Assembly: GCA_017613355.1 (NCBI GenBank)
Contig: JAGAEA010000032.1
Span: 26,752 to 90,751, forward strand
Reading direction: 5' to 3'
DNA length: 64,000 nt
Source: Clostridia bacterium
Lineage (GTDB): Bacteria; Bacillota; Clostridia; Oscillospirales; CAG-272
Every line of letters begins with the position of its first letter. Position 1 is the stretch's first letter. The notes below the pieces were generated by a model that did no database searches, was not told where the DNA came from, and saw nothing but the letters and a program-made list of their open reading frames with translations. The translations under genes were made by a program, and so were the position numbers. Shown here in pieces: positions 38,509 to 52,794 of this stretch.

Positions 38509-40338
38509 TTATCTGCCTCCCGCACTACCAAACAGCGCGGCTTTGTAGTCGGGCGCGATGACCTGCAAGAGATACCGTTCGTTCCCGCACTTATAGAGGC
38601 AAGTTCCGCGTTCGGGATATTTGATCAGGTCATACTCGGCTTGTTCCAACTGCAAGGTGTCCATAAAGTCTTTCGGGTTGATGTTGCCTGCGTTGAAGAG
38701 AAACTGATGCGTCGGAATGCTGAACAACGGCTTGGTCAGTTCCTTGATATCGGGCAATAAAAAATCCTCGATATTCTGGCTTGCCAGCAGGATCGAGGAG
38801 TCCTTTTTCCGTACCCGTTTGGAGGCGTTCCGGATGTATTCGATGGCTGTCCGGTTCGTGAGGAACAGGTACAACTCGTCAATGGAAGCCGCCGTGTTGC
38901 CTTTCGTCAGGAGCTTGTGGTTCATGTAGGACAGGATGTTGAACAGCATCGCGTCCTTGAGCTTCTTGTTGGATTCCATCAGTCCCTTGACACCGAACAC
39001 CAGGAATCGGTCATCGGAAATGTTGGTATGCCCGTTGAAGAATTTGCTCTCGGCTCCGACGCACATGGAGTGAAGCCCAAGGCACAGTTCCCGCAGCAGG
39101 TCTTCCGTGAACAGAGACTTGCTGCCTTTTTCGTACTTCTGGTACTCACTTTCCACGATCAGATACAGGTCGCCCACGGTGGGATAGTCCTTTGCGCCGA
39201 GACGATCATAGTCGGTACTGTCCGTGATGCCGTACTCGCCGTAGAGCTTAGTCAGAAGGATCTCCAACGCGTCCAGTTGGGCTTGGTCAAAGTCCTTATA
39301 GACACGGAAGAAGTCCTTGAGGAAACTGATATGTTGGGACAGTCTGGTTGCCTTACGAAATGCCTCAGGGCTTTCGGGATCGTTTTCCTCTCTGGCTTGA
39401 TCGTTCCATTCCTTCGGCTCCAGCGGATTGATGATATACTCCCCGCTCATCAGATCGAGGTAGCACCCACCGAGATTGCGGCAGAGAGATTCGTATTCCT
39501 GCTCCGCGTCGAGGCAGATGACCGATTTGCCGGACATCCGCAGATTGGTCAGGAGCAGTTTTAGGAGGTAGGACTTGCCCTGACCGCTGTTGCCGAGGAT
39601 CAGGATATTGGAGTTGGTCTTGTCGTCGGTGCGGCGGTCGAAGTCCACGAGGATGTTCGTCCCGAACTTGTCCTTCCCGATGTAGAAGCCGTCCGGGTCG
39701 GTCTTGCCCGAATAGTTGAAGGGATAAAGGTTGGCAACCGAGGACGCTGGCAGGATGCGTTCAAACAGACTGCCAAAGGCGTTATGCCCGCAGGGAAGGC
39801 AGGAGAGGAAGCCCTCTTTCTGCCGTAAAGTCAGCCGATCCACCGACAGTTTTTCACGGGTCAGTTCCATGCTGACGTCGGATTGCAGTTCCCGCAGTTT
39901 TTCCAGAGTCGGCGCGGTCAGTTCAAGGAACACCGCGCAGTGCAGGAGAGGTTCGCGGTCGCGGCGCAGATCGTTCAGAAGTTCCGCAACGTCTTCGAGG
40001 TTGCCCTCGCCGGTGACGGTGTCCTGCACATCGTTTGAGTTCGCCAGGAGGCGATTCTTTCGCGTCGCGTTCTGCAGGATCTTTCTTTGCTCGATCCCGT
40101 CCACAAACCGGCTGTAGATATGCAGGGTCAGCGATTCTTTGTCCCCGAAGCGGGAGAGGATGGCTTGGTCGGTCGTGCCGGGCGGGTAATCCTTGATCGC
40201 CCAGACACAGCGATAACTGTCGCCGCAGATGAAATGATCCGTATAGAAGCGGATGGCGGCGGGGGCGATCATATCGAAGAAATCCTTGACGTATTCTTCG
40301 CTCTGAAGCACTTCGCGCGGTAATGGGTTCTTTTTCAT
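38509..40338 (-). CDS. VirB4-family conjugative ATPase, C-terminal ~609-aa cistron
   Basis: It has the Walker A motif LGNSGQGKSYLLK. The ATG at 40338 is preceded by AAGGAG at a 7-nt spacing, starting right after the upstream stop. Confidence 0.8.
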   Translation of the reverse strand: MKKNPLPREVLQSEEYVKDFFDMIAPAAIRFYTDHFICGDSYRCVWAIKDYPPGTTDQAILSRFGDKESLTLHIYSRFVDGIEQRKILQNATRKNRLLANSNDVQDTVTGEGNLEDVAELLNDLRRDREPLLHCAVFLELTAPTLEKLRELQSDVSMELTREKLSVDRLTLRQKEGFLSCLPCGHNAFGSLFERILPASSVANLYPFNYSGKTDPDGFYIGKDKFGTNILVDFDRRTDDKTNSNILILGNSGQGKSYLLKLLLTNLRMSGKSVICLDAEQEYESLCRNLGGCYLDLMSGEYIINPLEPKEWNDQAREENDPESPEAFRKATRLSQHISFLKDFFRVYKDFDQAQLDALEILLTKLYGEYGITDSTDYDRLGAKDYPTVGDLYLIVESEYQKYEKGSKSLFTEDLLRELCLGLHSMCVGAESKFFNGHTNISDDRFLVFGVKGLMESNKKLKDAMLFNILSYMNHKLLTKGNTAASIDELYLFLTNRTAIEYIRNASKRVRKKDSSILLASQNIEDFLLPDIKELTKPLFSIPTHQFLFNAGNINPKDFMDTLQLEQAEYDLIKYPERGTCLYKCGNERYLLQVIAPDYKAALFGSAGGR

Positions 40339-40349
40339 ATACACTCCTT

Positions 40350-40925
40350 TCATGTTTCGGGGATAAACCACCGGCGGATGGCATTTTCACCATCCACGTC
40401 TTCGGGCGGTTCTTCGGTCAGGTATCCGAAGTAACGGGAGAGGAACCGTTTGATGTCCTTTTTGGTTGCCCGCTTGCAGTCGAATCCCTGGTCGTTGATC
40501 TGTTTTTCCAGACGGTTGAGCGTGGCGAAGGACTGTTCCTCGCTTCCGTTCCCGACCCGATAGCAGAAGAGGAATTCCCGCGCCGTTGACATTTTCAGTT
40601 GGATGTCATCGAGAAACTTGCGGTCTTTCCGCAAGAGCTGCTGGATCTTCGGGTTCTGCTCTCTTTCTGTTTTTCTGCCAAGTGACAGTTTCACCTGTTC
40701 AAAGTTCTCCCGCGCGTCGGTGCAGATGATCTCCAGATCGGGCTGAACCGAGAGCAGTTGCATGAGCCGACGGATCTTCACCGTTACGGTTTCCTCGGAC
40801 AGCACCGAGAGGTTGGACGGCTGCACGCGGAAGAACACCAGCTCGCCGTGGTCGGTTTGCAGTCCGTTCCTGGTGAAGTGGCGAACCCCGAGCAGTTCTT
40901 TGGTTGAATTTTGTTTTTTCGGCAT
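40350..40925 (-). CDS. VirB4 N-terminal-domain-like protein (separate 191-aa cistron)
   Basis: It sits between the VirB3-like and VirB4 ATPase genes. 191 + 609 aa equals a typical ~800-aa Firmicutes VirB4. The N-terminal layout (FTRNGLQTDHGELVFFRVQPSNLSVLS) resembles VirB4 N-domains. Confidence 0.5.
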   Translation of the reverse strand: MPKKQNSTKELLGVRHFTRNGLQTDHGELVFFRVQPSNLSVLSEETVTVKIRRLMQLLSVQPDLEIICTDARENFEQVKLSLGRKTEREQNPKIQQLLRKDRKFLDDIQLKMSTAREFLFCYRVGNGSEEQSFATLNRLEKQINDQGFDCKRATKKDIKRFLSRYFGYLTEEPPEDVDGENAIRRWFIPET

Positions 40926-40928
40926 TGG

Positions 40929-41201
40929 TTATTCATCTTCCTTCCATTCGTATTTTTGTTGCGTCCCAACGAAGAAACGCCAAGCCCGCAGGATGTAATC
41001 CAATACCGAAGATTCATCCGCGCGGATGGTGAGGAACGCATAGACCAGCGTGAACGCTGCGGGCGGGATCCAGCCGAGTTTTGCCCGCGCGATCACCGAC
41101 AGGGTGATGAACACCCCGAGCAGAATGATATCGCGCAGGTTCCAAAACCACAGCTTCGCGCTCGTTTTCATGTTCTGTGGGTAGAGATATTGTTTTTTCA
41201 T
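40929..41201 (-). CDS. VirB3-like (PrgI family) small membrane protein
   Basis: 90 aa with two hydrophobic segments. A GAGGTGA RBS precedes the ATG at 41201. The 215-aa track ORF has an implausible extension that overlaps the VirB6-like gene. Confidence 0.6.
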   Translation of the reverse strand: MKKQYLYPQNMKTSAKLWFWNLRDIILLGVFITLSVIARAKLGWIPPAAFTLVYAFLTIRADESSVLDYILRAWRFFVGTQQKYEWKEDE

Positions 41202-41212
41202 AGTCTTTGTGA

Positions 41213-42145
41213 TCACCTCTTTGCGATAGCTCTGCCAAGATTGATGGCGGTCGTCGTCGTATGAACGGCGGACATCATATTCACGCGCACGCTCGTGTCC
41301 AGACCGAACTGCTGTGCAATGCGCGGGACTTCGTTTGCCGCGAGCATGACACCGAGTCCGAGAAGCGGATGAGACCGCATCGTAATCAGCCCCATCAAGA
41401 GAAGGGTGGTCTGCATGAAGGTCGTAAAGCAGATGGCAATGATCTGACGGCACCAGCCCGTGAACCCGTCCGTGTAACCGCGCGGCAGACTGAACAGGTG
41501 CAGACTTCCAACCGCGATCTGAATCAGGAGGATCCCGCCGCGCTTGATGTTGGAGAAGAAGCACTTGATGACGCAATAGCCGAAACAGATCACCAGAAGC
41601 AGATTCAGAAGCAGGGTGTTTGCCTGTATCGATGGACCGTTTTGGAAATAGTCGGTCAGAATACTCAACGCAGTATTCTGTACCGACAGATTCATCCCGA
41701 CGGTCTGCGTGATCAGATCTTTGGCAAACCTGCCTTGTAATGTCACGCAGAAACGGAACAGTTCCACGGGGACGACCGTGAAAAGGTTGACCGCCAGCAA
41801 ACCGTAGAGGAAAGGCAGGACCTGCCGTTTGACGTTGATCCTGCCCATGCTCTGATACTCGATGGCGATATCAAAAATAGCGACCGCCAAGCCCGCGATG
41901 AACAGTCCCCATCCGAAGAGGGAGAAGAAATGCAGGGCGGCTTTCACCCAATCGAGATCGAACAGGTTCGCCCCGATTTCTGCCATCCCGGTAAAGAATT
42001 CCGACAGCGCGTTGCAGACATGGAGATAGATCCATTCGAGAAAACGGTCCCAAAGGCTTCCGGCGATTCTCTCCCACACAGATAGGAGTGCCGAGCTGAT
42101 GCTGCTCCCGATGCCGGAGATCAGATCTTTCACCCAGTCAAACAT
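41213..42145 (-). CDS. VirB6/TrbL-like polytopic membrane protein
   Basis: 310 aa with multiple transmembrane segments, positioned between the VirB2-like and VirB3-like genes. Confidence 0.55.
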   Translation of the reverse strand: MFDWVKDLISGIGSSISSALLSVWERIAGSLWDRFLEWIYLHVCNALSEFFTGMAEIGANLFDLDWVKAALHFFSLFGWGLFIAGLAVAIFDIAIEYQSMGRINVKRQVLPFLYGLLAVNLFTVVPVELFRFCVTLQGRFAKDLITQTVGMNLSVQNTALSILTDYFQNGPSIQANTLLLNLLLVICFGYCVIKCFFSNIKRGGILLIQIAVGSLHLFSLPRGYTDGFTGWCRQIIAICFTTFMQTTLLLMGLITMRSHPLLGLGVMLAANEVPRIAQQFGLDTSVRVNMMSAVHTTTTAINLGRAIAKR

Positions 42146-42148
42146 CGG

Positions 42149-42499
42149 TTACATCCCCAGGATCGACCAGATGTACAGCGGGCAGGTCAGAGAGAAGACG
42201 AGCGTGCCGAGCAGGATTGTCGGACCCGCCCATTCAAACTGCCCGTGCTTGCGGTAGTCGAGATAGGCGGTTGCGATCTTGACGAACAGCAAGACCGCCA
42301 GCACCACGTCGATCACAGGAAAGACCACGCGGTTGACCACCTGCTTGATCTGCCCGCTGGCGGCGTTCCAGGTACCTTCCACCGCGCCTGCCACGTCCCC
42401 GGGATCGGATGCGAACGCGGGGATACAGAGAGTGGCGAAAAGGGCTGCACAAATGACAGCCGCAAAGATCCAACGAGTCTTTTTGTTAAAACATTTCAT
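42149..42499 (-). CDS. VirB2/TrbC-like small membrane protein
   Basis: 116 aa with a signal peptide (...LCIPAFASDPG) followed by two hydrophobic helices. Confidence 0.45.
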   Translation of the reverse strand: MKCFNKKTRWIFAAVICAALFATLCIPAFASDPGDVAGAVEGTWNAASGQIKQVVNRVVFPVIDVVLAVLLFVKIATAYLDYRKHGQFEWAGPTILLGTLVFSLTCPLYIWSILGM

Positions 42500-42860
42500 G
42501 TGTCAAAGTCCTTTCTTGTAAGTATTCTTCATATTGTTCCGGTCGGATGTGCCGAACCGGGATGCCATGCGCGTTTGCATAGCGGATTTCGGATTGCATT
42601 CCTTGGCTGATCGTGTCCCCGAAGACCCATAATTCTTCGCATTCGGACAGCAGTCGGATTCCCGCCATCAGGCCGAAGTCCCGTTCTTCGGCAACCTCAT
42701 CGTCCAGAAACTGCGTGAAATAGATATGCGGGGCAATCGGAATCGCCCCACACTCTTTTACAACGTATTCACAGTAGTGCCGTGCCGATCGGATATTGGC
42801 TTCCACGTCACCCCGCAGCGGGGAGCAGACGTACACCAGTTTGGGATTATTGCCCGACAT
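42486..42860 (-). CDS. DUF4406 / nucleoside 2-deoxyribosyltransferase-like protein
   Basis: The KLVYVCSPLRGD...PIAPHIYF...CEELWVFGDTISQGMQSEIRYANAHGIPV pattern fits the family. The ATG at 42860 overlaps the adhesin gene end. Confidence 0.5.
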   Translation of the reverse strand: MSGNNPKLVYVCSPLRGDVEANIRSARHYCEYVVKECGAIPIAPHIYFTQFLDDEVAEERDFGLMAGIRLLSECEELWVFGDTISQGMQSEIRYANAHGIPVRHIRPEQYEEYLQERTLTHEMF

Positions 42861-45135
42861 AGTAATCGTCATAGATGCTGCCCTTGATCCGAATCGAAAC
42901 AGCATTGCTTCGTGAAGTCAGAACCCCGGCAGGTGTCCAGACCTGCGTGGCGGTGACCGATACAGTATAATCTCCATCCGCGACATAAAGAGGGATGAAG
43001 TGCGTCCGCTTGCCGTTGTCAGCAGGGTTTTCCGTGAACGCAAATCCACCGTCCATCTTTTCCAATGAGCGGTATCTTCCAGTCACCGTGGAGTACCCGA
43101 ATTCGGGGAATGTGGCATAGACCGCCTGTACTTCAGAGTATGCATCAGCAGGCGGCATTTCATAACCGGGTAAAACCGTTACCATCGGCGCCACCCGGAT
43201 TGAGAATCCGTATCCCGAACGCATCACCCATGTGCCGTTCTCCTGTGCCGCACTCGCGCAGGATTCATCCGGTGTTACGATTGAAACGGCATCAGCAAAA
43301 GTGATCCCGTAGCGTTTGAGGACGAACCCGCCGTTCTCCCAGATCCATTCGTTCCATTTCATCGTGTTTTTGCTCGAGGTCAGCGGTTCTGTCTGCGCGT
43401 AATCAGCAGGAGCCGTTCGGTCATAGCGCGTGTCCGGTGTCTGCGAGGTCGGGTAGGCTTGAACGACTGTGGAAAAGGACGCACGATTGTCCGTCGGATC
43501 ATCCCCCGAAAGAGGTATTTCCGTATCGAGAACGCACGCGCAGCTCACAGTTTTTCCCGCAAAATCCTGCGGAACCGTCCAATGGAAATACACGAGATTG
43601 GAACTGTCCGATGGGATCACCACACTGCCTTTGGTTTGTTCCGTCAGGATCGTACCGTTGGAAGAAACGGTAAACCGTGCCGTTAATCCATTTTCCGGCG
43701 TAACGTTCTCGGAACCGTCATTGCGGATGACATACGTGGTGACCACAGTCATACCCTCGTAGTAGGGGTTGTTTGTGTTTTCCAGCACTTCAACGGAAAG
43801 CCCGTAGGCAGGACGGCGAACCGAAAGGGTTGCGCTGACTGCGTTGTTGTCGGGATTGGTTTCCGATTGTCGGTTCTCCCAATTCAGCCGCACTTCTACG
43901 GTGTGTTCTCCCGCAACGGTTCCCACATCGAGCGTAAAGGTAACATACGCGATTCCATACGGCTCGAAGTCAAGCGTTCTGCTCCCGATGACCGTACCGT
44001 CATAACAGAGTTCCAGCGGGATCCCGCTGTATGCGTGTACCTGATCCCAACTGTCCGCACGGATAGAAACCGTAACGGTATCTCCACGGTTGACCTGTGA
44101 CGGCAGGGCATCCCACAGCATCAGGGAAAACTCATACTCGGATTCCAGCCAGACGGCATAGAGCGTGCAATCCGAGTTCTCGGTATAGGCATCGCCGGAA
44201 GCATAGGAAACCGTATTCGACCAACTGTTGGTTGCCCAACCAGCGAACGCATAACCGCCTCTTACAGGAACGGTATCCGACAGGGTCAGCGACACGCCGT
44301 AATACTTCTTTTGTGATGCTGGTGCGCCCTCTCCGCCGTTAGCATCATAGGTGACGGTATATTCCTGCAAGGTATAGTAGAAGTTGACGACTACCGTACG
44401 GTTGATACAATAATCCAGTTTCCCGTGTTTGTCCTCATGGAAAGTGGACCAGTCTTTCATGGGTTCGCTTGCGGGGGTGTTCACATAATTGTATCCGAAC
44501 GCGTTTTTCCCGATGTTCTCACTCGCGCCGAGCCACGAATAGGAAAAGTTTCCGGTCAGGGCGGAATTGTACCCATCCTTGATGCGGTAACCCGGGATGG
44601 AAAGTGCTTGCAGATCGACCCAATCATAATAAAAAATATCTTGTCTGTCCGATTGATACAGCGTATCGTTCCCTTTCTCATCGGTCGTATAGTGCCGGAT
44701 AATCAGCGCGATCTGCTCGGACTTGCGGACGGTCACGGTCGCGGTGATGCTTTTTCCGCTGATCATCCCGGTGAACTTGTAGGAGATCTGGATATAGCCG
44801 TATTTCCCAAGCCCGGTACCGCTTGCCCATGTCAGTTTGCAACTTTGAAATAGTCCCGCGTTACTGGTAAAATCAGTAATGTCGTAGCCATATAAGGACA
44901 GGGAGATCAGGTCATCCACATCCCGCTTGGTGTGGTAGGTCACGCTCTTGACGATCTCTCCCGTGTCCTTGTCCACGCAGTGGACATAGACGATGCGATT
45001 ACATTCATCGGCGGGATATTCGTATTCTTCGGAGGCGCTTCCGTCTGGTTCGTAAGCGCCGACCGACAGCGCCAGAAAAAATGCCAGAAGGAATCCGAAA
45101 ACACAAGCGAACAGAATCTTATTCCGTTGTTTCAT
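42847..45135 (-). CDS. Large secreted adhesin-like protein with a Listeria-Bacteroides repeat
   Basis: It has a signal peptide after the ATG at 45135, with an AAAGGAG RBS. The block YTVTYDANGGEGAPASQKKYYGVSLTLSDTVPVRGGYAFAGWATN matches the Listeria-Bacteroides repeat. It has no LPXTG motif and no C-terminal anchor. Confidence 0.65.
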   Translation of the reverse strand: MKQRNKILFACVFGFLLAFFLALSVGAYEPDGSASEEYEYPADECNRIVYVHCVDKDTGEIVKSVTYHTKRDVDDLISLSLYGYDITDFTSNAGLFQSCKLTWASGTGLGKYGYIQISYKFTGMISGKSITATVTVRKSEQIALIIRHYTTDEKGNDTLYQSDRQDIFYYDWVDLQALSIPGYRIKDGYNSALTGNFSYSWLGASENIGKNAFGYNYVNTPASEPMKDWSTFHEDKHGKLDYCINRTVVVNFYYTLQEYTVTYDANGGEGAPASQKKYYGVSLTLSDTVPVRGGYAFAGWATNSWSNTVSYASGDAYTENSDCTLYAVWLESEYEFSLMLWDALPSQVNRGDTVTVSIRADSWDQVHAYSGIPLELCYDGTVIGSRTLDFEPYGIAYVTFTLDVGTVAGEHTVEVRLNWENRQSETNPDNNAVSATLSVRRPAYGLSVEVLENTNNPYYEGMTVVTTYVIRNDGSENVTPENGLTARFTVSSNGTILTEQTKGSVVIPSDSSNLVYFHWTVPQDFAGKTVSCACVLDTEIPLSGDDPTDNRASFSTVVQAYPTSQTPDTRYDRTAPADYAQTEPLTSSKNTMKWNEWIWENGGFVLKRYGITFADAVSIVTPDESCASAAQENGTWVMRSGYGFSIRVAPMVTVLPGYEMPPADAYSEVQAVYATFPEFGYSTVTGRYRSLEKMDGGFAFTENPADNGKRTHFIPLYVADGDYTVSVTATQVWTPAGVLTSRSNAVSIRIKGSIYDDYYVGQ

Positions 45136-46329: not shown

Positions 46330-47198
46330 CCGAAGATCCCTCCCAGTGACGAGAGTAACACCTGCCCGATGACCACCACGTAGATGGAAGCAAAGCAAAT
46401 GAGCAGGATCATGGAGAGGCGGCGAACTTTCTTCGGGGCTTTGTTCGCTTCGTCCCGCAAGGACTGCCGTTGGTATTCCCCGAATTTGCGGGAAAGATCT
46501 TCCCAGCGCGTCGGGGTGCTGTTGCCGTTGATGACACTTTGCAGTTCGCGGATGACTTCGTCCACTTTCGGCGAACCGATGCGGTTGCCCATCCTTCGCA
46601 GGGCTTCCAGATCATGACCCGAACGCATATCCGCGACCGTGATATCGAGTTCGTGCTTGAACTCGGTTCCGGCTTTCTCGCGGTAGCCGTCCAGGATCGA
46701 GAGGACGTCCCGGCTGTGGGAAAGGGTGTTCGCCACAACCGATACGAAACGCGGCAGTTCTTCCTCAATGCGCGTTCTGCGTTCCTTGATGGCACGGCTG
46801 ACCTTACCGGCCAGCCGTCGATACAGAATGACGGCAACGATGAGAATCAGGACCGCCAGGATCCGGGAGAAAAAGAGCGCGGGGAGAGCAAGAAAGCCGA
46901 CCAGCGCGCTTTTGACAATACAGTCCGCGACGTATCCTTCCGGAGAGATATCCAGATCTGCCGTCCGGAGATCTGCCTCGAGCATCAGGCGGCGGTATTC
47001 GTTGAGCCTCAGTTTGCCCACGAGCCAACCGGACACTTCCCGCAGGAACAGTTCCACGGGATTCGTTTTCTTTTTCCGTTTGCCGAGACCGTTCGCCGCC
47101 TTCGACGCCGCATAGTGCGGAACACGGAAAATATCCGAAAGAAGGAACGCAAGACCGAGGGCAAACAGAACTGAACCGAATATTATGATCCACATCAT
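46326..47198 (-). CDS. tadC: TadC-like type II secretion system F-family membrane protein
   Basis: 290 aa with N- and C-terminal transmembrane segments and a central cytoplasmic domain. It follows the tadB-like gene with an overlap. Confidence 0.65.
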   Translation of the reverse strand: MMWIIIFGSVLFALGLAFLLSDIFRVPHYAASKAANGLGKRKKKTNPVELFLREVSGWLVGKLRLNEYRRLMLEADLRTADLDISPEGYVADCIVKSALVGFLALPALFFSRILAVLILIVAVILYRRLAGKVSRAIKERRTRIEEELPRFVSVVANTLSHSRDVLSILDGYREKAGTEFKHELDITVADMRSGHDLEALRRMGNRIGSPKVDEVIRELQSVINGNSTPTRWEDLSRKFGEYQRQSLRDEANKAPKKVRRLSMILLICFASIYVVVIGQVLLSSLGGIFG

Positions 47199-48133
47199 CT
47201 GCCACCCCCTTTTCGGTATTCCACGGGTTTCGTGAACTTGAACGCGAAGATACCGGTGACGAGGATCGCCGCGCCGCAGATTGCCAGCACGATTTTACCC
47301 GGGACCGTATCCATGAGCGCCGCGTACCAGTCCTTGTTCAGCAAATACAGAAGCGGGATGTTGGCAAGAACCATGCCCGCCATCACGAAGTATTCGGTTC
47401 TGGCTGCCGTCATCATTGCCTTGATGTCCCGGTTGACGATGGCAATATCGGTCAGTTTGGTCACGATGGGCATGAGCGTATGCTTCAGGCTCCTGTCATC
47501 TTCACAGGCGATGAGCGTATCACACCAGTCGGCGAACACCGTGTTGTCGATCTTTTCCTGCAGAGATCGGATGCATTCCTTTCGGTTGGCACGGATCATC
47601 GTGCAGTCGGCAAGGAATCCCGCGAAGATGTCCCGCAGGGGCGGGCGCAGGTAGCCGATGTTTTCCTCAACCGCCGTCACGATGTCATCCGTGCGGATGT
47701 AGGACGCGGTGATGCTCGACAGGGCGGTTTCGAGGGATTCGGTGATGTGGTTCCGGTAATAGGTGATGGTTCGGCGCAAAAAGGCAAACGGGATCAGCGC
47801 CATGGCGAGTGCCAGCACGGGAATCAGAAACAGATTATCGATAGCAATTGCCAAAACCGTCCCGACCAGCATGAACAGCAGCGACAGCGCGCAGGCGAGG
47901 GCAAACCGCCCGCCTTTTCCGGTGGTTTCGAGCGCGTCCCTGACGCGGCGGAGTCCGACTGTCAGGCGGTGCGAGGTCTGTTTGCCTTTGGCACGGAGCG
48001 TCCGGCTCCGAAGAGTCGGCCCTTTGTTTTCTCCCCGCGAAAGGTCTTTCATGACGCGATCCGGGGTCAGTCCCAGAAGCAGAATGATTCCTACCGAGAG
48101 GAGTAAAAAACAAATCAGATAGAGAAATGTCAT
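47195..48133 (-). CDS. tadB: TadB-like type II secretion system F-family membrane protein
   Basis: 312 aa with the same architecture, directly downstream of the CpaF/TadA ATPase gene. Confidence 0.65.
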   Translation of the reverse strand: MTFLYLICFLLLSVGIILLLGLTPDRVMKDLSRGENKGPTLRSRTLRAKGKQTSHRLTVGLRRVRDALETTGKGGRFALACALSLLFMLVGTVLAIAIDNLFLIPVLALAMALIPFAFLRRTITYYRNHITESLETALSSITASYIRTDDIVTAVEENIGYLRPPLRDIFAGFLADCTMIRANRKECIRSLQEKIDNTVFADWCDTLIACEDDRSLKHTLMPIVTKLTDIAIVNRDIKAMMTAARTEYFVMAGMVLANIPLLYLLNKDWYAALMDTVPGKIVLAICGAAILVTGIFAFKFTKPVEYRKGGGR

Positions 48134-48148
48134 GGTTCACCTCTTTCT

Positions 48149-49444
48149 TCAGTTCAGGAACCGTTCCAGCGTCTGGTACGGCACGCCGTTACGGATCAGG
48201 AGGGTTTGCAGATCTGCGGACGGCACGCCCATCTTCCGGAACTGCCCGGTGATCTTGTATTGCCCGTTTTCACAGGTGTTCCCGGTGATGTGATATCGGT
48301 ACAGGCACCGATACCTTGCAACCCCGTCCGGCGTGACCGAACATTCCGAAATGTCCATGACACGGCGGTTGTTGTCTTCGCACTTGTGGCAGAAGGCAAC
48401 GATCGGGAACGCCTGACGCGCCTGGGCGAGTGAGACTTCCATGCCGAGTTGGAAACGCCGTTGGCATAGCAGAGAGATGCGCCCGTGCGCCGCTTCCGCA
48501 GGACCCGAATGGACGGTCGTCACCACGGTGTGGCCGGTAAGCGACGCTTCCACAGTTGCGTTGGCTTCCGCGTCCCGGATCTCCCCAACGACGATCAGGT
48601 CGGGATCGAACCGCAGGGCGGCGACCACCAGATCTTCCTGGGAGATGTTGTAGGCCGCGTTTTCGTTCGGCCGGGAGAGCGTATGGACGACGTTGTTCAG
48701 GATCTCACCGTTCGGTTTCTTCTTCACGAGAAACAACTCCCGCGCGCCGGACTCAATCGAATAGATGCGCTTGTCATCCGGAATGGAAGCGAGAAGCGCG
48801 CCGACCAGCGTGGTTTTGCCACTGTTGGTTCTGCCCGCCACCAGAGAGGAAACCCCGTAGCGGATGCACATTTCGAGGAACTCCATCATTTCCTCGGTCG
48901 CCATGCCGCTCTCGATGATGCACTTCCGGTCCACCCGTTGGGGATGCAGAAGCCGGATGGAGACCGATACCCCGCAACATTCGTCCACGACAGGTGTTTT
49001 GATCGCAGTGATACGGGTATTGTTCGGCAGGTGTCCCTGTGCCATCGGTGTCGCGTTGTCGATGATCATGCCGCTATGGTGCAGCAGACGTTTGACGATG
49101 TCCACAGCGTGACTCGGGCTGTGGAAATGCTCTTTCAGCTTTTCCATTCTGCCGTCCGACCAGGTCAGGGTTACGTCGTCCCAGCTGTTGATGTTGATTT
49201 CTTCGAGGTCGGGGTTCCCGAGGTAGGGTGTCAGGACCGAGTATTCCACCATTTCGCTGAACAGGCGGCCAACCAACTGTTCGTCGGTAAAGCCGTCCAC
49301 GATATAGCCGTGATCCATCACGAACTTCTCGATGTAATACCGCAGATCCTCGCGTTTGTTCTCGTCGGTCAGGGCAGAAGCATAGGTTTTGGAGATATAC
49401 CGCTGGGTTTCATTCAGAACGTCCCACAAATTACTCTTGACCAT
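48149..49444 (-). CDS. tadA: CpaF/TadA family pilus assembly ATPase (T2SSE superfamily)
   Basis: 431 aa with the Walker A motif GRTNSGKTTL, the VVGEIRD Asp box/Walker B and TGHTVVTTVHS His box. Confidence 0.85.
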   Translation of the reverse strand: MVKSNLWDVLNETQRYISKTYASALTDENKREDLRYYIEKFVMDHGYIVDGFTDEQLVGRLFSEMVEYSVLTPYLGNPDLEEININSWDDVTLTWSDGRMEKLKEHFHSPSHAVDIVKRLLHHSGMIIDNATPMAQGHLPNNTRITAIKTPVVDECCGVSVSIRLLHPQRVDRKCIIESGMATEEMMEFLEMCIRYGVSSLVAGRTNSGKTTLVGALLASIPDDKRIYSIESGARELFLVKKKPNGEILNNVVHTLSRPNENAAYNISQEDLVVAALRFDPDLIVVGEIRDAEANATVEASLTGHTVVTTVHSGPAEAAHGRISLLCQRRFQLGMEVSLAQARQAFPIVAFCHKCEDNNRRVMDISECSVTPDGVARYRCLYRYHITGNTCENGQYKITGQFRKMGVPSADLQTLLIRNGVPYQTLERFLN

Positions 49445-50178
49445 CGTTCACAACCCTTTCCGCGATTTCACGCATTCTTTTGTTGAATCGCTTATCGGAC
49501 ACCGATTCCCAGAGCTTTCCGGACAGGGACTGTTCCTTGACTTCGCGGCAAAACGGGACGGTAAAGCACAGGTCCTTCAGATGGGCTTTCGCTTCCTCGA
49601 TGGGAAGAAACACATCCTCGGTGACCGTGTTCAGACCCTGAATGAATTTTGCGGTATCCGAAAAAAGAGGGAGCTGCGAGAGGAAGAAACTCATACTCGA
49701 CAGATCCGGCGTGGCAAGCGAGAGAACCTGCTGAGCACGTTCCATCGCAACCACGGCCAGAAGATTGCCGTCCGGCACGGGAGGACAGTCCACGATGACG
49801 TAATCCGCAAGTTCGCAGAGCTTGTCCAGCAGGTCTTCCGCTTTCGCTTTGCTGTAACGCGGATAAGTGAATCGGTTTTCTCCCGCGCGGTATCCGATGT
49901 AGCAGAGATTCTCCCGTTTCTTGACCGACACCAACTGGGTCAGGATGCTCTCCATTTCCAGATCTATGGCGGATAGCGGAACACCGACCGATCCGAGTTC
50001 TTCGGAAGGGGTGTTCGGAAACAGGACCGGCATGGTCGGGGTGTCGAGGTCGGGATACAGGACGATGACCGTGGTCTTGTAGGAATCATAGATCGCAGAG
50101 GCGAGTTTCGTGGCGAAGGTGGTCTTGCCCGCATGAGGAGAACCCCACACGGCAAGGATTTTGGCTTGTTCTTTCAAA
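49431..50178 (-). CDS. TadZ/CpaE-like ParA/MinD-superfamily ATPase
   Basis: It has the deviant P-loop AVWGSPHAGKTT. The likely start is the TTG at 50178, with AGAGGG 6 nt upstream right after the cpaB stop. The track ORF extends to 50288. Confidence 0.55.
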
Positions 50179-50181
50179 CCG

Positions 50182-50913
50182 TCACCCTCTTTCCGCGAAG
50201 TACGCCTCTTGTGCGTCGAGATACCGCTGTGCCGTTGCCGCATCCCCACGGTATTCGAGCGTGAAGTGCATGGACGCCGTCTTTTCATACTGTGCCAGCA
50301 GTTCTGCCTGCTCTTGATTGACGAGCAGTGTCACGGTTACCGGTTGGGCATGATCTTTGACGTCGGCTTTGTCGATGCCGGACGAGGTCGTGCTGGTGAT
50401 GACCTTGACGTAGGACAGTTCGGGCGGCGTAAAAGCAAAGCCGTCTTTTGCGGAATACACGATGACCGAAATGATGTCCCCGGTTTCGAGTTTGCCGGAG
50501 ACGCCCGCCGCGAAGGTCCCGATGCTGACCGAGATCGCCTTATGGTTCTCATCCAGCACATCCAGAATGTCCATCGCGGTATCCACGTCGGACGTCAGTT
50601 TCATGGGAAAGAGATAATCCCCCGCGTAAAGGTCACAGGTCGCGTACTTTCCGACAACGTCCGAGGGCTTCGTCAGGACACCCTGCGGAATATGATAACT
50701 GCCCACGCTGACGGTTTCGATATCGTTTTCGGTCACGAGACTGCCGCGCGTCACGGTTTTCGATATGCGGACGATACTGGTTCTGCCGTCCTTTGCCCGG
50801 TTGACCAGCGGGGCAACACCGAAGCAGATGGCAAGGGCGGCGATCACACAGAGGATGCCGATGATCGTGCGGTTGCCCATTTTACGGGAACCGATGGATT
50901 TTGTCTTCTTCAT
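50182..50913 (-). CDS. cpaB: CpaB/RcpC-like Flp pilus assembly protein (SAF domain)
   Basis: It has an N-terminal transmembrane segment followed by a SAF-like segment (VRISKTVTRGSLVTENDIETVSV). Confidence 0.65.
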   Translation of the reverse strand: MKKTKSIGSRKMGNRTIIGILCVIAALAICFGVAPLVNRAKDGRTSIVRISKTVTRGSLVTENDIETVSVGSYHIPQGVLTKPSDVVGKYATCDLYAGDYLFPMKLTSDVDTAMDILDVLDENHKAISVSIGTFAAGVSGKLETGDIISVIVYSAKDGFAFTPPELSYVKVITSTTSSGIDKADVKDHAQPVTVTLLVNQEQAELLAQYEKTASMHFTLEYRGDAATAQRYLDAQEAYFAERG

Positions 50914-50928
50914 GGATTCCTTCCTTTC

Positions 50929-51585
50929 TTACACGAAGAACAAAATCATTGCCGCGACCGAAAGGAACGGAACGAGGGCAAAGGGCTGTTTCTTCGGAAT
51001 GCGCCGGATTCTGCCGTAAATGCTTACGAACAGGACGGCGATGATGAGTCCCGCAAGGTAGGCGACGATCCCGCGCCAGCCGCCGAGCAGGAACGCCAAT
51101 GCGGTAGAGATCTTGATATCGGCACCGCCGAGCGTCCTGTGGGGCGGAAGCCATGCCGGGATCATCTGGGGCAGGAAGACGAAGAGCGCGGCAAGGACCA
51201 TGGAGAGGATGCTTTGTGTTGCCAGAGACGGAATCGCCAGCGCGAGGATCAGCACCCAAGCATAGTCCCCGACCTCATGGGTAGCAATGTCCGAGCAGGA
51301 AGCGTAGAGAAGCACAAAGGCAAGGAACAGTCCCTGAATTGCCGTGACCGACAGCCCGAACCGTGCAAACAGGGCAAGGGACAAAAGCCCGAATAATGGC
51401 AGAACAACCGCCGTTTTTGCTTTGAAGTTCTGCCGTTGCAGGACGCGGCAGAGCGCCCATGCAATAAGTAAAGAAATCCCGACGAAGAGAATGGCGGACA
51501 AAATCAGGGAAAGAACCTCACGGGGAATGTTCTCTCCCTGCAGCCGCCAGATACCGACAGTCGGGATCATAGGATGGATCATCAT
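50929..51585 (-). CDS. tadV: A24-family prepilin peptidase (TadV/CpaA-like)
   Basis: It is polytopic with two catalytic Asp motifs (SCSDIATHEV and GGADIK). A GGAGAAACA RBS precedes the ATG at 51585. Confidence 0.75.
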   Translation of the reverse strand: MMIHPMIPTVGIWRLQGENIPREVLSLILSAILFVGISLLIAWALCRVLQRQNFKAKTAVVLPLFGLLSLALFARFGLSVTAIQGLFLAFVLLYASCSDIATHEVGDYAWVLILALAIPSLATQSILSMVLAALFVFLPQMIPAWLPPHRTLGGADIKISTALAFLLGGWRGIVAYLAGLIIAVLFVSIYGRIRRIPKKQPFALVPFLSVAAMILFFV

Positions 51586-51672
51586 TGTTTCTCCTTTCAG
51601 GTTGCTGCGGGGCATAAAAGCCCCGCAGCCGGTTTGTTGGATCACTCGTACTTGGTCAAGACCGCCGTCCGA

Positions 51673-51906
51673 TCAAGTGCCGGAATAATTGAACATATTG
51701 GTGATTTTGGTGGTCATGTTCGGGATGACGACCGTGTTGAAGAGCGCGTAGAGGCCGGCAAGGATCAGACCGCCGATGACGACGCCGATGATGATTTTGA
51801 CACCAGTATCGATGTAGCCTTCGGCTTTGCGGTTCTCGATAGCGAGTTTGGTAGCAACAGCGGTGCGGTTGAGTTTGTTCTTGATGGAGTTGAAGAGTTT
51901 TTTCAT
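51673..51906 (-). CDS. flp: Flp-like pilin, copy 1
   Basis: 77 aa with a basic leader, AEGYID, then the hydrophobic helix VKIIIGVVIGGLILAGLYALF. The RBS is GAAAGGAAA. Confidence 0.7.
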   Translation of the reverse strand: MKKLFNSIKNKLNRTAVATKLAIENRKAEGYIDTGVKIIIGVVIGGLILAGLYALFNTVVIPNMTTKITNMFNYSGT

Positions 51907-51937
51907 GTATTTTGTTTCCTTTCTGTGTTTGAATTGG

Positions 51938-52546
51938 TTAAATCAGGATCATGTCCGACCAACCGGCTTTCCATTCCAGGCCGGTGGGAGTGGTCATGGT
52001 GTAGTAGGTCTGCCCACCCGCCCAGTAGCGGATGACAAATCGTTCCCCGGAGAAAGATCCGGCAGTGTTGGGCAACTGTGCTGAAGTACCGTAATAGCAA
52101 TGCGTGATGCTTTGGGCGTTGAAGTTGTACTTCTGCGTCCAACTGATACCGCCATCTTCGGAGGAGAGGATGTAGTAGGTGCTTCCATCCTTCAGAAGCG
52201 CCACCGAAACCGGATTTTCCTCCGCGTTGTCGGTCATGGTGCCGTACACGGTCGTGGTTTCGGAATAGGACGGCATTTGACAGTCAAACCAGTGGGTTCC
52301 GTCATAGGAATAACGGAGTACCGTTCTGTTCCCATCCTGCACGCTTACATAACGGAGAGAAGCGTTCTCGCCGTAATCCATCAGCGCGTTGACCTCGGTG
52401 CTGGCTTTGGTCAAAACGCCGTTATCGCCTCCGAACAGCATGTATGCTCCCGCGATGAGAAGTCCACCCAACACAACGGCGATGATAATGATCACCGCCG
52501 TCTTGATGTGTCCCTCTCCGCGTTTATTAAAGAAGATCTTGTTCAT
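51938..52546 (-). CDS. Pilin-like protein with a ~150-aa C-terminal globular domain
   Basis: The N-terminus is MNKIFFNKRGEGHIKTAVIIIIAVVLGGLLIAGAYMLF. It is followed by a Ser/Thr/Tyr/Trp-rich beta-type domain. Confidence 0.6.
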   Translation of the reverse strand: MNKIFFNKRGEGHIKTAVIIIIAVVLGGLLIAGAYMLFGGDNGVLTKASTEVNALMDYGENASLRYVSVQDGNRTVLRYSYDGTHWFDCQMPSYSETTTVYGTMTDNAEENPVSVALLKDGSTYYILSSEDGGISWTQKYNFNAQSITHCYYGTSAQLPNTAGSFSGERFVIRYWAGGQTYYTMTTPTGLEWKAGWSDMILI

Positions 52547-52560
52547 GCGCTCACCTCATA

Positions 52561-52794
52561 TCAGGTGCCGGAATAATCGAAAAATCCGGTGACCTTGGTG
52601 GTCATGTTGGGGATGACGACCGTGTTGAAGAGCGCGTAGAGACCGGCGAGGATGAGACCACCGATGACGACGCCGATGATGATCTTGACGCCGGTGTCGA
52701 TGTATCCCTCGGCGCGGCGATTTTCGATGGCGAGTTTGGTAGCGACAGCGGTGCGGTTGAGTTTGTTCTTGATGAAGTTGAAGAGTTTTTTCAT
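52561..52794 (-). CDS. flp: Flp-like pilin, copy 2
   Basis: 77 aa, differing from copy 1 at 6 residues. The 157-aa track ORF to 53034 is an unsupported extension running across a hairpin. Confidence 0.7.
   Translation of the reverse strand: MKKLFNFIKNKLNRTAVATKLAIENRRAEGYIDTGVKIIIGVVIGGLILAGLYALFNTVVIPNMTTKVTGFFDYSGT

What the first reader, a model, noticed from the sequence alone, without database searches (positions are those of the whole stretch)
38509..52794. Complete Tad/Flp-type pilus module placed inside a Gram-positive-style conjugative T4SS gene string
Reading the minus strand from 52794 down to 38509, the genes are co-oriented and separated by only a few nt or by ATGA-type overlaps.

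The Tad-type genes come first:
- flp copy 2, a pilin-like protein with a globular domain, and flp copy 1
- an A24 prepilin peptidase
- CpaB (SAF domain)
- a ParA/MinD-like TadZ
- the CpaF/TadA ATPase
- TadB and TadC
- two TadE-like proteins

Then come a small anchored protein, a 762-aa adhesin-like protein and a DUF4406-like protein. The VirB-like genes follow immediately: VirB2-like, VirB6-like, VirB3-like and a split VirB4. VirD4, a primase, a relaxase and a candidate oriT lie further along the same element.

Established knowledge: conjugation systems of Firmicutes (MPF-FA/FATA classes) are described as using surface adhesins rather than pili. Tad loci are normally described as chromosomal adhesion or colonisation islands.

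I see no cell-wall hydrolase and no VirB8/TcpC-like gene in the window. No secretin is present, as expected for a monoderm.

Inference: the Tad machine may be the mating-pair-formation or contact organelle of this element. If so, it could replace missing channel or wall-crossing components, which would make this a hybrid T4SS/type IVc pilus transfer apparatus.
Basis: partly seen in the sequence, partly recalled or inferred. Interest (0 to 1): 0.85.

Follow-up and report, generated by a model that had tools for sequence, protein, structure and literature searches.

The report
Tad-like pilus module in conjugation operon
A gut Clostridia conjugative element carries a complete Tad-like pilus gene set where its relatives carry a sortase-anchored surface adhesin, so the pilus is probably how this element catches recipient cells, which has not been shown for any Gram-positive conjugation system.

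Summary
The gene string is real. Twenty co-oriented minus-strand genes run from 52794 to 38509, with gaps of at most 87 nt.

The first thirteen form a monoderm Tad-like pilus module: three DUF6133 prepilins, an A24 peptidase, CpaB, a TadZ-like ATPase, a CpaF-like ATPase, a TadB/TadC pair, two minor-pilin-like proteins, a small membrane protein and a 762-aa secreted Flg_new protein. They run straight into a Gram-positive-type T4SS: DUF7768, VirB2-like DUF3852, VirB6/TrbL_5, VirB3-like and a naturally split VirB4. VirD4, primase and relaxase lie further on.

Comparison gives the new result.
- Among 52 metagenomic relatives with the same T4SS backbone, 38 carry a sortase-dependent thioester/SpaA adhesin in this slot, 4 carry the Tad module, and none carries both.
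- Two elements that are 87-92% identical in T4SS DNA differ by exactly this cassette.
- Similar Tad modules also sit beside other T4SS types on Clostridia plasmids.

The Tad pilus is therefore most likely an interchangeable mating-contact module. It resembles the IncI thin pilus in role, not a channel substitute, because several Tad-positive elements keep a wall hydrolase.

This element does lack the hydrolase catalytic domain. I rate it a new variant of a known kind, and no experiment has tested it.

The parts
52910..53329 (-). SpoVG homologue, the conserved backbone gene just upstream of the contact-module slot
   Evidence: PF04026 on the identical contig. It is conserved upstream of the slot in both Tad-positive and TED-positive relatives.
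52561..52794 (-). Prepilin copy 2 (77 aa, DUF6133), Flp-sized with a 30-aa leader
   Evidence: DUF6133 E 7e-22. Gene call. Sequence.
51938..52546 (-). 202-aa prepilin: a DUF6133 N-terminus plus a C-terminal beta-rich domain with two Asp-box-like motifs. Candidate tip or minor pilin.
   Evidence: DUF6133 E 1.8e-11. Sequence. The AF2 single-sequence model has low confidence: a helix at 11-38 followed by strands.
51673..51906 (-). Prepilin copy 1 (77 aa, DUF6133)
   Evidence: DUF6133 E 8e-26.
51604..51629 (.). GC-rich palindromic hairpin between the pilin gene and the peptidase gene. It may set pilin-to-machinery stoichiometry; this is inference.
   Evidence: Stem of 10 bp with 9 GC pairs.
50929..51585 (-). 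Prepilin peptidase, A24 family, with no methyltransferase domain (TadV-like)
   Evidence: PF01478, 28.8 bits against a cut-off of 26.5. Seven hydrophobic segments and a GGADIK motif.
50182..50913 (-). CpaB/RcpC with a SAF domain and an N-terminal TM segment
   Evidence: RcpC E 9e-13 and SAF E 1.7e-6. TIGR03177 scores 71.6 against 71.
49431..50177 (-). TadZ/CpaE-position ParA/MinD-like P-loop ATPase, lacking the N-terminal receiver-like domain
   Evidence: Only sub-threshold ParA/MinD hits. hhalign against CpaE gives prob 95%, E 4e-8, covering the ATPase domain only.
48149..49444 (-). CpaF/TadA-like secretion ATPase
   Evidence: T2SSE E 1e-30. The best NCBIfam match is TIGR03819, 'TadA family conjugal transfer-associated ATPase'. 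NCBI names it a CpaF family protein.
47195..48133 (-). TadB-like platform protein (T2SSF superfamily)
   Evidence: hhalign against bona fide TadB/TadC gives prob 98.3%, E 1e-14 over 258 columns. There is no direct Pfam hit.
46326..47195 (-). TadC-like platform protein, a paralogue of the preceding gene
   Evidence: hhalign against TadB/TadC gives prob 97.8%, E 8.5e-13. Paralogy with the TadB-like gene: prob 97.8%.
45925..46329 (-). DUF4320 minor-pilin-like protein with the prepilin motif RRGEGYID
   Evidence: DUF4320 E 1.5e-21 plus a weak N-terminal DUF6133 hit. No TadE homology.
45445..45915 (-). 156-aa minor-pilin-like protein with an N-terminal prepilin-like hydrophobic segment
   Evidence: Sequence. 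Conserved after DUF4320 in relatives.
45119..45433 (-). Small N-terminally anchored acidic protein (104 aa)
42847..45135 (-). 762-aa secreted or N-anchored adhesin-like protein (Flg_new repeat, DUF8194/DUF8195) with no sortase signal
   Evidence: Flg_new E 1e-15. Domains. C-terminus.
42486..42872 (-). DUF7768/DUF4406 protein, the first gene of the conserved T4SS backbone
   Evidence: DUF7768 E 1.7e-40. Present in both Tad-positive and TED-positive relatives.
42149..42499 (-). DUF3852, VirB2-like: a signal peptide plus two hydrophobic helices
   Evidence: DUF3852 E 5e-44. The TrbC/VirB2 hit (E 3.6e-4) is below threshold. Topology.
41213..42145 (-). VirB6-like TrbL_5
   Evidence: E 1.8e-114.
40929..41201 (-). 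VirB3-like small membrane protein (90 aa)
   Evidence: Position, size and a TM segment only. Conserved in all relatives.
40350..40925 (-). VirB4 N-terminal part, encoded as a separate gene (191 aa)
   Evidence: It matches positions 100-279 of NF045975 VirB4. It is a separate gene in all relatives, and other genes are often inserted after it.
38509..40338 (-). VirB4 C-terminal ATPase part (609 aa)
   Evidence: NF045975 E 3.7e-87, positions 292-893. P-loop domains.
36904..38424 (-). HipA_C/DUF6788 kinase-like gene with its own perfect promoter and terminator. It is an inserted cassette, not part of VirB4.
35967..36452 (-). Remnant of the VirB1-type hydrolase: the 2-TM N-terminal domain only, with no NlpC/P60 or lysozyme domain
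   Evidence: 32% identity to residues 1-149 of the L045 512-aa hydrolase, with no hit to its C-terminal domains. The relatives' domains are shown.
31973..33280 (-). Relaxase (MobP3 / MobL)
   Evidence: NF041499, 368 bits against a cut-off of 150. MobL E 4e-30.
27980..29386 (-). DUF3991 plus Toprim primase
26157..27983 (-). VirD4 coupling protein (CD1115 family)
   Evidence: NF045973, 265.9 bits against a cut-off of 250. T4SS-DNA_transf E 1.5e-45.

Best explanation
Window positions from about 25.8 kb to beyond 64 kb hold an integrated conjugative element of an uncultured gut Clostridia bacterium. Its transfer operon joins a monoderm Tad-like type IV filament machine head-to-tail to a Gram-positive-type (MPF-FATA-like) T4SS.

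Proposed mechanism (all four steps are inferred)
1. The A24 peptidase cleaves five prepilin-like proteins at a shared (K/R)x(G/A)|EG(Y/H)I(D/K) motif.
2. The CpaF-like ATPase, on the TadB/TadC platform and together with CpaB and the TadZ-like ATPase, polymerises the 47-residue DUF6133 pilin through the wall. The 202-aa pilin and/or the 762-aa Flg_new protein provide binding specificity.
3. The pilus captures recipients, and may pull them in, since CpaF motors are bifunctional in Caulobacter.
4. The T4SS (VirB6, VirB3, split VirB4, VirD4, MobP3 relaxase) then transfers the DNA.

The Tad block is an interchangeable contact cassette. It fills the same operon slot, and by inference the same role, as the sortase-anchored thioester adhesin of most sister elements.

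Shown here: gene content, homology, synteny, mutual exclusivity and the cassette swap. Inferred: pilus assembly, the cleavage site and a role in mating.
For: Gene identities.

Operon structure: a tight co-directional string with no convincing intergenic terminator between the Tad and T4SS genes.

Conserved order: the same order appears in relatives whose ATPase is about 75% identical, from many human-gut samples.

Slot analysis on 80 loci anchored on the VirB6 homologue
- The backbone is SpoVG - slot - DUF7768 - DUF3852 - TrbL_5 - VirB3 - VirB4N - (sortase) - VirB4C - hydrolase.
- In 38 of 52 loci the slot holds a 1236-1668-aa adhesin with TED, 7-9 SpaA domains, a TQ-ester domain and a PQTG sorting signal. 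In 4 loci it holds the Tad module. No locus has both.
- A sortase is present in 25 of 27 loci with enough downstream sequence. It is absent from the Tad-positive lineages (window, L022, L026, L059).

Cassette swap: L042 (Tad-positive) and L055 (TED-positive) are 87-92% identical in DNA over 11.7 kb from DUF3852 onward, and unrelated upstream of it.

Other T4SS types: DUF6133/DUF4320-type Tad modules lie directly upstream of different T4SS types on plasmids of Terrisporobacter, C. difficile and an Oscillospiraceae isolate.

Literature
- A TED adhesin in the pLS20 conjugation operon is required for efficient liquid mating (PMC8092201).
- Plasmid-encoded type IV pili promote mating in IncI plasmids and are essential for PAPI-1 transfer (PMC9045228, PMC12857230).
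Against: - There are no functional data for any member, and pilus production is unproven.
- The pilins are not Flp-family by Pfam, and the 'TadE-like' genes have no TadE homology.
- The same T4SS backbone works without Tad in most relatives, and with neither module on C. estertheticum pDSM8809. Tad is therefore dispensable for the channel and could be niche-adaptive cargo.
- Tad pili elsewhere serve host colonisation.
- The slot argument assumes that the TED adhesin of these elements is itself a mating adhesin. That is extrapolated from pLS20.
- Only four independent Tad-positive loci were found in the metagenome sample.
Confidence: 0.6

Rival explanations
1. The Tad module is adaptive cargo. 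It would be a colonisation, aggregation or biofilm pilus that benefits the host bacterium in the gut, as in Bifidobacterium breve, and is merely carried by the element without a role in DNA transfer.
For: - Tad is the type IV filament class most often plasmid-borne and horizontally transferred (PMC6668835).
- The module is present or absent among elements with the same T4SS backbone.
- Tad pili are established adhesion organelles (own knowledge; text on B. breve).
Against: - The module is embedded in the transfer operon between the leading-region genes and virB2/virB6-like genes, with overlapping reading frames.
- Its absence is always compensated by another surface-contact module. It is mutually exclusive with the TED adhesin plus sortase.
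- It recurs immediately beside at least two unrelated T4SS types.
Confidence: 0.25
2. The Tad machine would be part of the DNA conduit or wall-crossing apparatus, replacing the missing hydrolase and VirB8-like parts to form a true T4SS/T4P hybrid as proposed for PAPI-1.
For: - In the window and in L026, the post-VirB4 hydrolase is reduced to its membrane domain. No other hydrolase or VirB8-like gene is detectable in the visible 41 kb of the element.
- The PAPI-1 precedent exists (PMC12857230).
Against: - Tad-positive L042 keeps a full NlpC/P60 hydrolase, pTPHSE1 keeps a C40 peptidase, and the Oscillospiraceae plasmid keeps an M23 peptidase.
- TED-positive L071 and L078 also show only the N-terminal domain.
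- VirB6, VirB3, VirB4 and VirD4 are all intact here.
- The right end of the element was not reached, because the contig ends about 2.9 kb beyond the window.
Confidence: 0.08
3. The element is a decaying, non-transferring remnant, and the arrangement has no current function.
For: - The hydrolase is truncated.
- A HipA-like cassette is inserted after VirB4.
- No integrase is seen in the window or in the 2.9 kb beyond it.
Against: - All 20 genes of the string are intact.
- Near-identical copies (98-100% ATPase identity) occur in several independent samples, and the wider family has thousands of members.
- The same truncated-hydrolase layout is conserved in the diverged relative L026.
Confidence: 0.05

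Closest known systems
Thin type IVb pilus of IncI plasmids (R64, TP114)
   Same: It is a type IV filament machine encoded on the conjugative element itself, separate from the T4SS channel. It is used to capture recipients and matters in liquid and in the gut. Minor pilins or adhesins set specificity (PMC9045228, PMC12857230).
   Different: - The IncI systems are in diderms, with a type IVb pilus (PilS/PilV, a secretin and a shufflon) and a Dot/Icm-like T4SS.
- This system is in a monoderm. It is Tad-like (CpaF, TadB/TadC, CpaB, tiny pilins), has no secretin, sits in the same operon as an MPF-FATA-like T4SS, and is untested.
PAPI-1 / ICE type IV pilus-dependent transfer in Pseudomonas
   Same: An integrated element in which VirB4 and VirD4 are combined with an element-encoded type IV pilus (PMC12857230).
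   Different: In PAPI-1 the pilus is essential and few other T4SS parts are recognisable. Here VirB6, VirB3 and VirB2-like genes are present, and the pilus cassette is dispensable in sister elements.
Thioester (TED/TIE) mating adhesin of pLS20, and sortase-anchored adhesins such as PrgB
   Same: These are contact-forming surface modules encoded inside Gram-positive conjugation operons. The pLS20 TED adhesin is needed for efficient liquid mating (PMC8092201). Sister elements of this window carry such an adhesin in exactly the slot where the Tad module sits.
   Different: Those are single covalent adhesin proteins, with a sortase in the sister elements. Here the slot holds a 13-gene filament machine.
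Tad-like genes next to T4SS genes on Sulfobacillus plasmids pL15/pY0017, and the actinobacterial TIGR03819 'TadA family conjugal transfer-associated ATPase' neighbourhood
   Same: Monoderm mobile elements in which MinD-like, CpaF-like and TadB/TadC-like genes accompany VirB4, TraG and a relaxase (PMC6803676). TIGR03819 is the best NCBIfam match of the window ATPase.
   Different: - Those cases are only descriptive notes or a database name. They include no slot analysis and no function.
- The window ATPase scores far below the TIGR03819 cut-off (130 against 373 bits), so it is not a member of that family.
Canonical Tad/Flp (type IVc) loci (Aggregatibacter, Caulobacter, Bifidobacterium breve)
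   Same: The gene order is the same: pilin, peptidase, CpaB, TadZ, TadA, TadB, TadC, minor pilins, large terminal protein. Compare the Methylobacterium plasmid locus.
   Different: - The pilins are DUF6133, not Flp.
- The minor pilins are DUF4320, not TadE/TadF.
- The TadZ-like protein lacks its N-terminal domain.
- There is no secretin, TadD or TadG.
- The module is embedded in a conjugation operon.

Membership tests
Tad/Flp (type IVc) pilus system | CpaF/TadA-type T2SSE ATPase | tested here: met
   PF00437 E 1e-30. It is 27-29% identical over about 90% of its length to annotated CpaF proteins. The best NCBIfam match is the TadA-family model TIGR03819, below its cut-off.
Tad/Flp (type IVc) pilus system | Two single-domain T2SSF platform proteins (TadB and TadC) | tested here: met
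   hhalign against bona fide TadB/TadC gives prob 98.3% (E 1e-14) and 97.8% (E 8.5e-13). The two genes are paralogues. The window proteins give no direct Pfam T2SSF hit, and only 1 of 10 relatives passes the Pfam cut-off.
Tad/Flp (type IVc) pilus system | Dedicated A24 prepilin peptidase without a methyltransferase domain (TadV type) | tested here: met
   PF01478, 28.8 bits against 26.5. The protein is 218-238 aa with only the peptidase domain.
Tad/Flp (type IVc) pilus system | Flp-family pilin (Pfam Flp_Fap, G/XXXXEY processing motif) | tested here: not met
   The pilins hit DUF6133 only. The motif is (K/R)x(G/A)|EGYID, read. Their size (a mature pilin of about 47 aa) is Flp-like.
Tad/Flp (type IVc) pilus system | CpaB/RcpC | tested here: met
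   PF16976 and SAF. TIGR03177 scores 71.6 against 71.
Tad/Flp (type IVc) pilus system | TadZ/CpaE localisation ATPase | tested here: inconclusive
   Only the ParA-like ATPase domain aligns (prob 95%). The N-terminal receiver-like domain is absent, and Pfam/NCBIfam hits are sub-threshold.
Tad/Flp (type IVc) pilus system | TadE/TadF pseudopilins | tested here: not met
   DUF4320 profile against TadE profile gives prob 7%. Only the prepilin-like N-terminus is shared.
Tad/Flp (type IVc) pilus system | An assembled pilus on the cell surface | not testable with these tools
   Needs EM or labelling of a carrier strain.
Gram-positive conjugative T4SS (MPF-FATA/FA) | VirB4 ATPase | tested here: met
   NF045975 E 3.7e-87 for the C-terminal part and E 8e-4 for the N-terminal part. 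It is encoded as two genes.
Gram-positive conjugative T4SS (MPF-FATA/FA) | Coupling protein and relaxase | tested here: met
   VirD4 CD1115 family and MobP3, both above their cut-offs.
Gram-positive conjugative T4SS (MPF-FATA/FA) | VirB6-like polytopic protein and VirB3-like protein | tested here: met
   TrbL_5 E 1.8e-114. The VirB3-like assignment rests on size, position and a TM segment only.
Gram-positive conjugative T4SS (MPF-FATA/FA) | VirB1-type cell-wall hydrolase | tested here: not met
   Only the N-terminal membrane domain remains at 35967-36452. Relatives have NlpC/P60 with or without Phage_lysozyme2 at that position. The right end of the element was not seen.
Gram-positive conjugative T4SS (MPF-FATA/FA) | VirB8-like (TcpC/PrgL, NTF2-fold) protein | tested here: inconclusive
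   There is no Pfam hit in any element ORF, and none was recognised in Tad-less relatives either. No structure-based search was done.
Type IV pilus-assisted conjugation (R64/TP114, PAPI-1) | Type IV filament genes encoded on the conjugative element next to or with the T4SS | tested here: met
Type IV pilus-assisted conjugation (R64/TP114, PAPI-1) | Pilus of type IVb (PilS/PilV, PilN secretin, shufflon) | tested here: not met
   The components are Tad-like, and no secretin or shufflon recombinase appears in the Pfam scans.
Type IV pilus-assisted conjugation (R64/TP114, PAPI-1) | Pilus mutants reduce transfer | not testable with these tools
   Requires genetics in a culturable carrier.

The most novel reading that the evidence does not exclude
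In this hydrolase-less lineage (the window and L026), the Tad machine would not only catch recipients but be required for DNA transfer itself. It would provide the passage through the donor wall that the lost NlpC/P60 domain used to open. That would make it a PAPI-1-like obligate T4SS/type IV filament hybrid in a Gram-positive bacterium.
Probability: 0.1. Interest if true: 0.9.

Novelty: new variant of a known kind. Interest (0 to 1): 0.62.

Why it matters
Current reviews state that Gram-positive conjugation systems lack pili and rely on surface adhesins. They list type IV pilus/T4SS partnerships only for Gram-negatives (PMC12102498, PMC12857230).

A widespread family of human-gut Clostridia elements appears to exchange a covalent adhesin for a pilus machine in the same operon slot. 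If that is right, it would:
- give the first pilus-assisted mating system in monoderms;
- offer a natural experiment on how contact modules set transfer range in the gut;
- identify culturable plasmids (C. difficile, Terrisporobacter, Oscillospiraceae) on which this can be tested directly.

Tried and rejected
- Megablast of the 14.3-kb region against PLSDB found no match.
- Full-text searches for DUF6133, DUF4320, DUF3852 and TrbL_5 found nothing. Several searches for Tad plus conjugation in Firmicutes found no dedicated study.
- Profiles of the TadB- and TadC-like proteins against PDB sequences gave only noise. The adhesin and the 202-aa pilin have no PDB sequence relatives.
- An AF2 single-sequence model of the 202-aa pilin had pLDDT 50, so no fold search was run.
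- A 26-sequence VirB6 alignment was too diverse for pattern search and was replaced by a 10-sequence one.

Readings rejected
- The 506-aa gene after VirB4 is not the second half of VirB4. It is a HipA_C/DUF6788 protein with its own promoter and terminator.
- TadE homology of DUF4320.
- M23, glucosaminidase and C40 hydrolase queries found nothing in the 80 loci. The backbone hydrolase was found only through the homologue of the 161-aa gene.
- The Deane & Rawlings 2011 paper on the Sulfobacillus plasmids could not be read.

Full report
**1. What is there**

Pfam scans of the window's larger ORFs gave the overall layout.
- Positions 1-25745 encode sugar and central-metabolism genes.
- From about 25.87 kb to the right end of the window there is a conjugative element, almost all on the minus strand.
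- The window is identical to ENA contig k141_4453072 (93.6 kb). Its ATPase is NCBI MBO4309031.1, 'MAG: Clostridia bacterium'.
- That contig stops about 2.9 kb beyond the window. The right end and any integrase were therefore not seen.

The independent gene call on that contig gives 20 consecutive co-oriented genes between 52794 and 38509. Gaps range from -26 to +87 nt. No convincing intergenic terminator separates the Tad genes from the T4SS genes. The terminator-like hits on that strand lie inside coding sequence.

**2. The Tad-like module (52794-42847)**

- *Prepilins.* There are two 77-aa DUF6133 proteins about 92% identical to each other. A 202-aa protein has the same N-terminus plus a beta-rich C-terminal domain.
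- *Shared N-terminal motif.* These three proteins, the DUF4320 protein and the following 156-aa protein share a basic stretch, then (G/A)|EG(Y/H)I(D/K), then a hydrophobic helix. I read this as a class III signal cleaved by the adjacent A24 peptidase. That is inference.
- *Peptidase.* The A24 peptidase passes the Pfam cut-off narrowly, 28.8 against 26.5 bits.
- *CpaB.* It passes both the Pfam and TIGR03177 cut-offs.
- *ATPase.* It is a clear T2SSE protein. Its best NCBIfam match is TIGR03819, 'TadA family conjugal transfer-associated ATPase', followed by VirB11 and FlaI. All are below their cut-offs.
- *TadB/TadC.* The two 290-312-aa membrane proteins have no direct T2SSF hit. They are paralogues. 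As profiles they match bona fide TadB/TadC from proteobacterial and Virgibacillus plasmids at 98.3% (E 1e-14) and 97.8% (E 8.5e-13).
- *TadZ position.* This protein matches only the ParA-like domain of CpaE.
- *DUF4320.* It is not detectably related to TadE.
- *Gene order.* It equals that of a canonical Tad locus.
- *Secretin.* None is present, as expected for a monoderm.

In short, this is a Tad-like machine built around its own families of pilins (DUF6133) and minor pilins (DUF4320).

**3. The T4SS part**

- The genes are DUF7768, DUF3852, TrbL_5 (E 1e-114), a 90-aa VirB3-like protein and VirB4. DUF3852 has a signal peptide plus two helices and a weak TrbC/VirB2 hit.
- VirB4 is encoded as two genes of 191 aa and 609 aa. 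This split is ancestral. All relatives have it, and a sortase, a HipA-like gene or a group II intron reverse transcriptase can lie between the halves.
- The 506-aa gene after VirB4 is not VirB4. It is a HipA_C/DUF6788 protein with a perfect TTGACA-17-TATAAT promoter and its own terminator.
- Further on are a MobP3/MobL relaxase, a DUF3991-Toprim primase and a CD1115-family VirD4.

**4. Comparative evidence**

*(a) Close relatives.* ATPase homologues are abundant: more than 1850 proteins at E<=1e-10, with clusters of up to 2194 members. Relatives at about 75% identity from many human-gut metagenomes keep the same order, from the DUF3849/YodL/DUF3846 leading-region genes through SpoVG, the Tad module and the Flg_new protein to DUF3852 and TrbL_5.

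*(b) Plasmids with other T4SS types.*
- Complete plasmids of Terrisporobacter (pTPHSE1) and C. difficile (pCd5_2) carry the same kind of module: two DUF6133 genes, A24, CpaB, an AAA ATPase, the secretion ATPase at 36-41% identity, two platform genes and DUF4320.
- In both it lies directly upstream of a different T4SS: CD1115-type VirD4, the pLS20_p028 membrane protein, DUF5592, a C40 peptidase and a MobP2 relaxase.
- An Oscillospiraceae plasmid combines the module with a DUF3852-TrbL-VirB4-M23 T4SS.
- Thermoanaerobacterium pMU3262 has two such modules.

*(c) Same T4SS, no contact module.* The same T4SS lineage exists without Tad and without a large adhesin on C. estertheticum pDSM8809. There a glucosaminidase follows VirB4.

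*(d) Survey of the slot.* I anchored a metagenome scan on an alignment of VirB6 homologues, obtained 80 loci and scored them with my own tblastn.
- The backbone is SpoVG - slot - DUF7768 - DUF3852 - TrbL_5 - VirB3 - VirB4N - sortase - VirB4C - hydrolase - ... - relaxase.
- In 38 of 52 loci with at least 3 kb upstream, the slot holds a 1236-1668-aa protein. It has a thioester domain, 7-9 SpaA domains, a TQ-ester domain and a PQTG sorting signal.
- In 4 loci the slot holds the Tad module. No locus holds both.
- A sortase gene lies between the VirB4 halves in 25 of 27 loci with enough downstream sequence. It is missing in the Tad-positive lineages (window, L022, L026, L059).

*(e) Cassette swap.* L042 (Tad-positive) and L055 (TED-positive) share 87-92% DNA identity over 11.7 kb starting at DUF3852. 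They have no nucleotide similarity upstream of it. L042 still carries the now orphan sortase.

**5. Interpretation**

The Tad block is an exchangeable cassette in the adhesin slot of the transfer operon. A thioester adhesin encoded in the pLS20 conjugation operon is required for efficient conjugation, especially in liquid (PMC8092201). By position, co-orientation, mutual exclusivity and the co-varying sortase, the Tad pilus most likely does the same job, which is finding and holding recipients. This is the role of the plasmid-encoded thin pilus of IncI plasmids in liquid and in the mouse gut (PMC9045228, PMC12857230). I put this at about 0.6.

The main rival is that Tad is niche-adaptive adhesion cargo (0.25). 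It fits Tad's known mobility (PMC6668835). It explains the operon position and the compensatory pattern less well.

**6. The hydrolase question**

In relatives, the gene after VirB4C has a 2-TM N-terminal domain followed by NlpC/P60, sometimes with Phage_lysozyme2. The window's 161-aa gene at 35967-36452 and its L026 orthologue retain only residues 1-149 of that protein.

The loss is not tied to Tad.
- L042, pTPHSE1 and the Oscillospiraceae plasmid have both Tad and a hydrolase.
- TED-positive L071 and L078 also show only the N-terminal domain.
- No VirB8-like protein was recognised in either kind of element.

The 'Tad replaces wall-crossing parts' reading therefore stays possible only for this sub-lineage. 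I rate it at about 0.1.

**7. What is known**

- Reviews state that Gram-positive T4SSs lack pilins and use adhesins (PMC12102498).
- They list type IV pilus/T4SS partnerships only for Gram-negatives, namely R64 and PAPI-1 (PMC12857230).
- Descriptive precedents do exist. [quoted passage not shown]
- NCBI also has a model named 'TadA family conjugal transfer-associated ATPase'.
- I found no study that tests such a module or describes its alternation with adhesin cassettes.

I therefore class this as a new variant of a known kind, namely pilus-assisted conjugation. It uses a Tad-like machine in a monoderm, and it is backed by comparative rather than experimental evidence.

**8. Limits**

- There are no functional data.
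- Only four independent Tad-positive loci were in the metagenome sample.
- Domain calls on relatives used my own ORF calls.
- The right boundary of the element is unknown.
- The structure-based checks failed or were not possible.

Noticed in passing
window 36904-38490 (-): A 506-aa HipA_C/DUF6788 kinase-like gene sits right after VirB4C. It has a perfect sigma-70 promoter (TTGACA-17-TATAAT, 38490-38462) and a 13-bp-stem terminator (36881-36851). In relative L070 the homologue lies between the two VirB4 halves. It looks like a self-contained toxin-like cassette that moves around within the transfer operon.
   Followed up: partly
window 33947-36858 and 57087-58855 (-); also L045, L070: Five of 266 ORFs of at least 70 aa end in an acidic stretch followed by MT[LM]-COOH: GGMTM, GGMTL, PEMTL, NEMTL and NIMTM. 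All five are small acidic cytosolic proteins of the element, where about 0.06 would be expected by chance. The same tails occur in relatives. This could be a shared C-terminal signal, for example for T4SS-mediated protein transfer into recipients.
   Followed up: partly
window 38509-40925 (-); L039 14519-16456; L067 11847-12689: VirB4 is encoded as two genes (191 aa and 609 aa) throughout this family. Relatives have a sortase, a HipA-like gene or a group II intron reverse transcriptase/HNH gene inserted between the halves.
   Followed up: partly
window 35967-36452 (-): This 161-aa protein with 2 TM segments is the N-terminal domain of the NlpC/P60 (with or without lysozyme) hydrolase found after VirB4 in relatives. 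The catalytic domains have been cleanly deleted here and in L026.
   Followed up: yes
window 51604-51629: A GC-rich perfect hairpin (10-bp stem) lies between the stop of pilin copy 1 and the start of the peptidase gene. It may be an attenuator that sets the pilin-to-machinery ratio.
   Followed up: no
L003 2642-8052; L002-L005 11427-12043: In one relative, an IME-like insert (NikA-like protein, relaxase, serine recombinase) has replaced the pilin, peptidase and CpaB genes of the Tad module. In four relatives a PhdYeFM/ParE toxin-antitoxin pair sits between the ATPase and TadB genes.
   Followed up: no
window 51938-52546 (-): The 202-aa pilin carries two Asp-box-like motifs (SYDGTHW and SEDGGISW) in its beta-rich C-terminal domain. 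It is absent from some relatives (L006-L008), so it may be a variable specificity determinant.
   Followed up: partly
window 55400-56000 (+ strand genes) and 30682-31908 (+): Opposite-strand inserts lie within the element. One holds a YoeB/RelB toxin-antitoxin pair plus a nucleotidyltransferase, by the gene calls on the identical contig. The other is a DUF4143/AAA_14 ATPase between the relaxase and the primase.
   Followed up: no
window 4604-11400 (-): Three adjacent large proteins (396, 1115 and 741 aa) each carry a metallo-beta-lactamase-fold domain. They lie in the flank outside the element.
   Followed up: no
window 33848-33868: A perfect 10-nt inverted repeat (TGAGTGTGCA / TGCACACTCA) lies in the intergenic region upstream of the relaxase accessory gene.
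   Followed up: no
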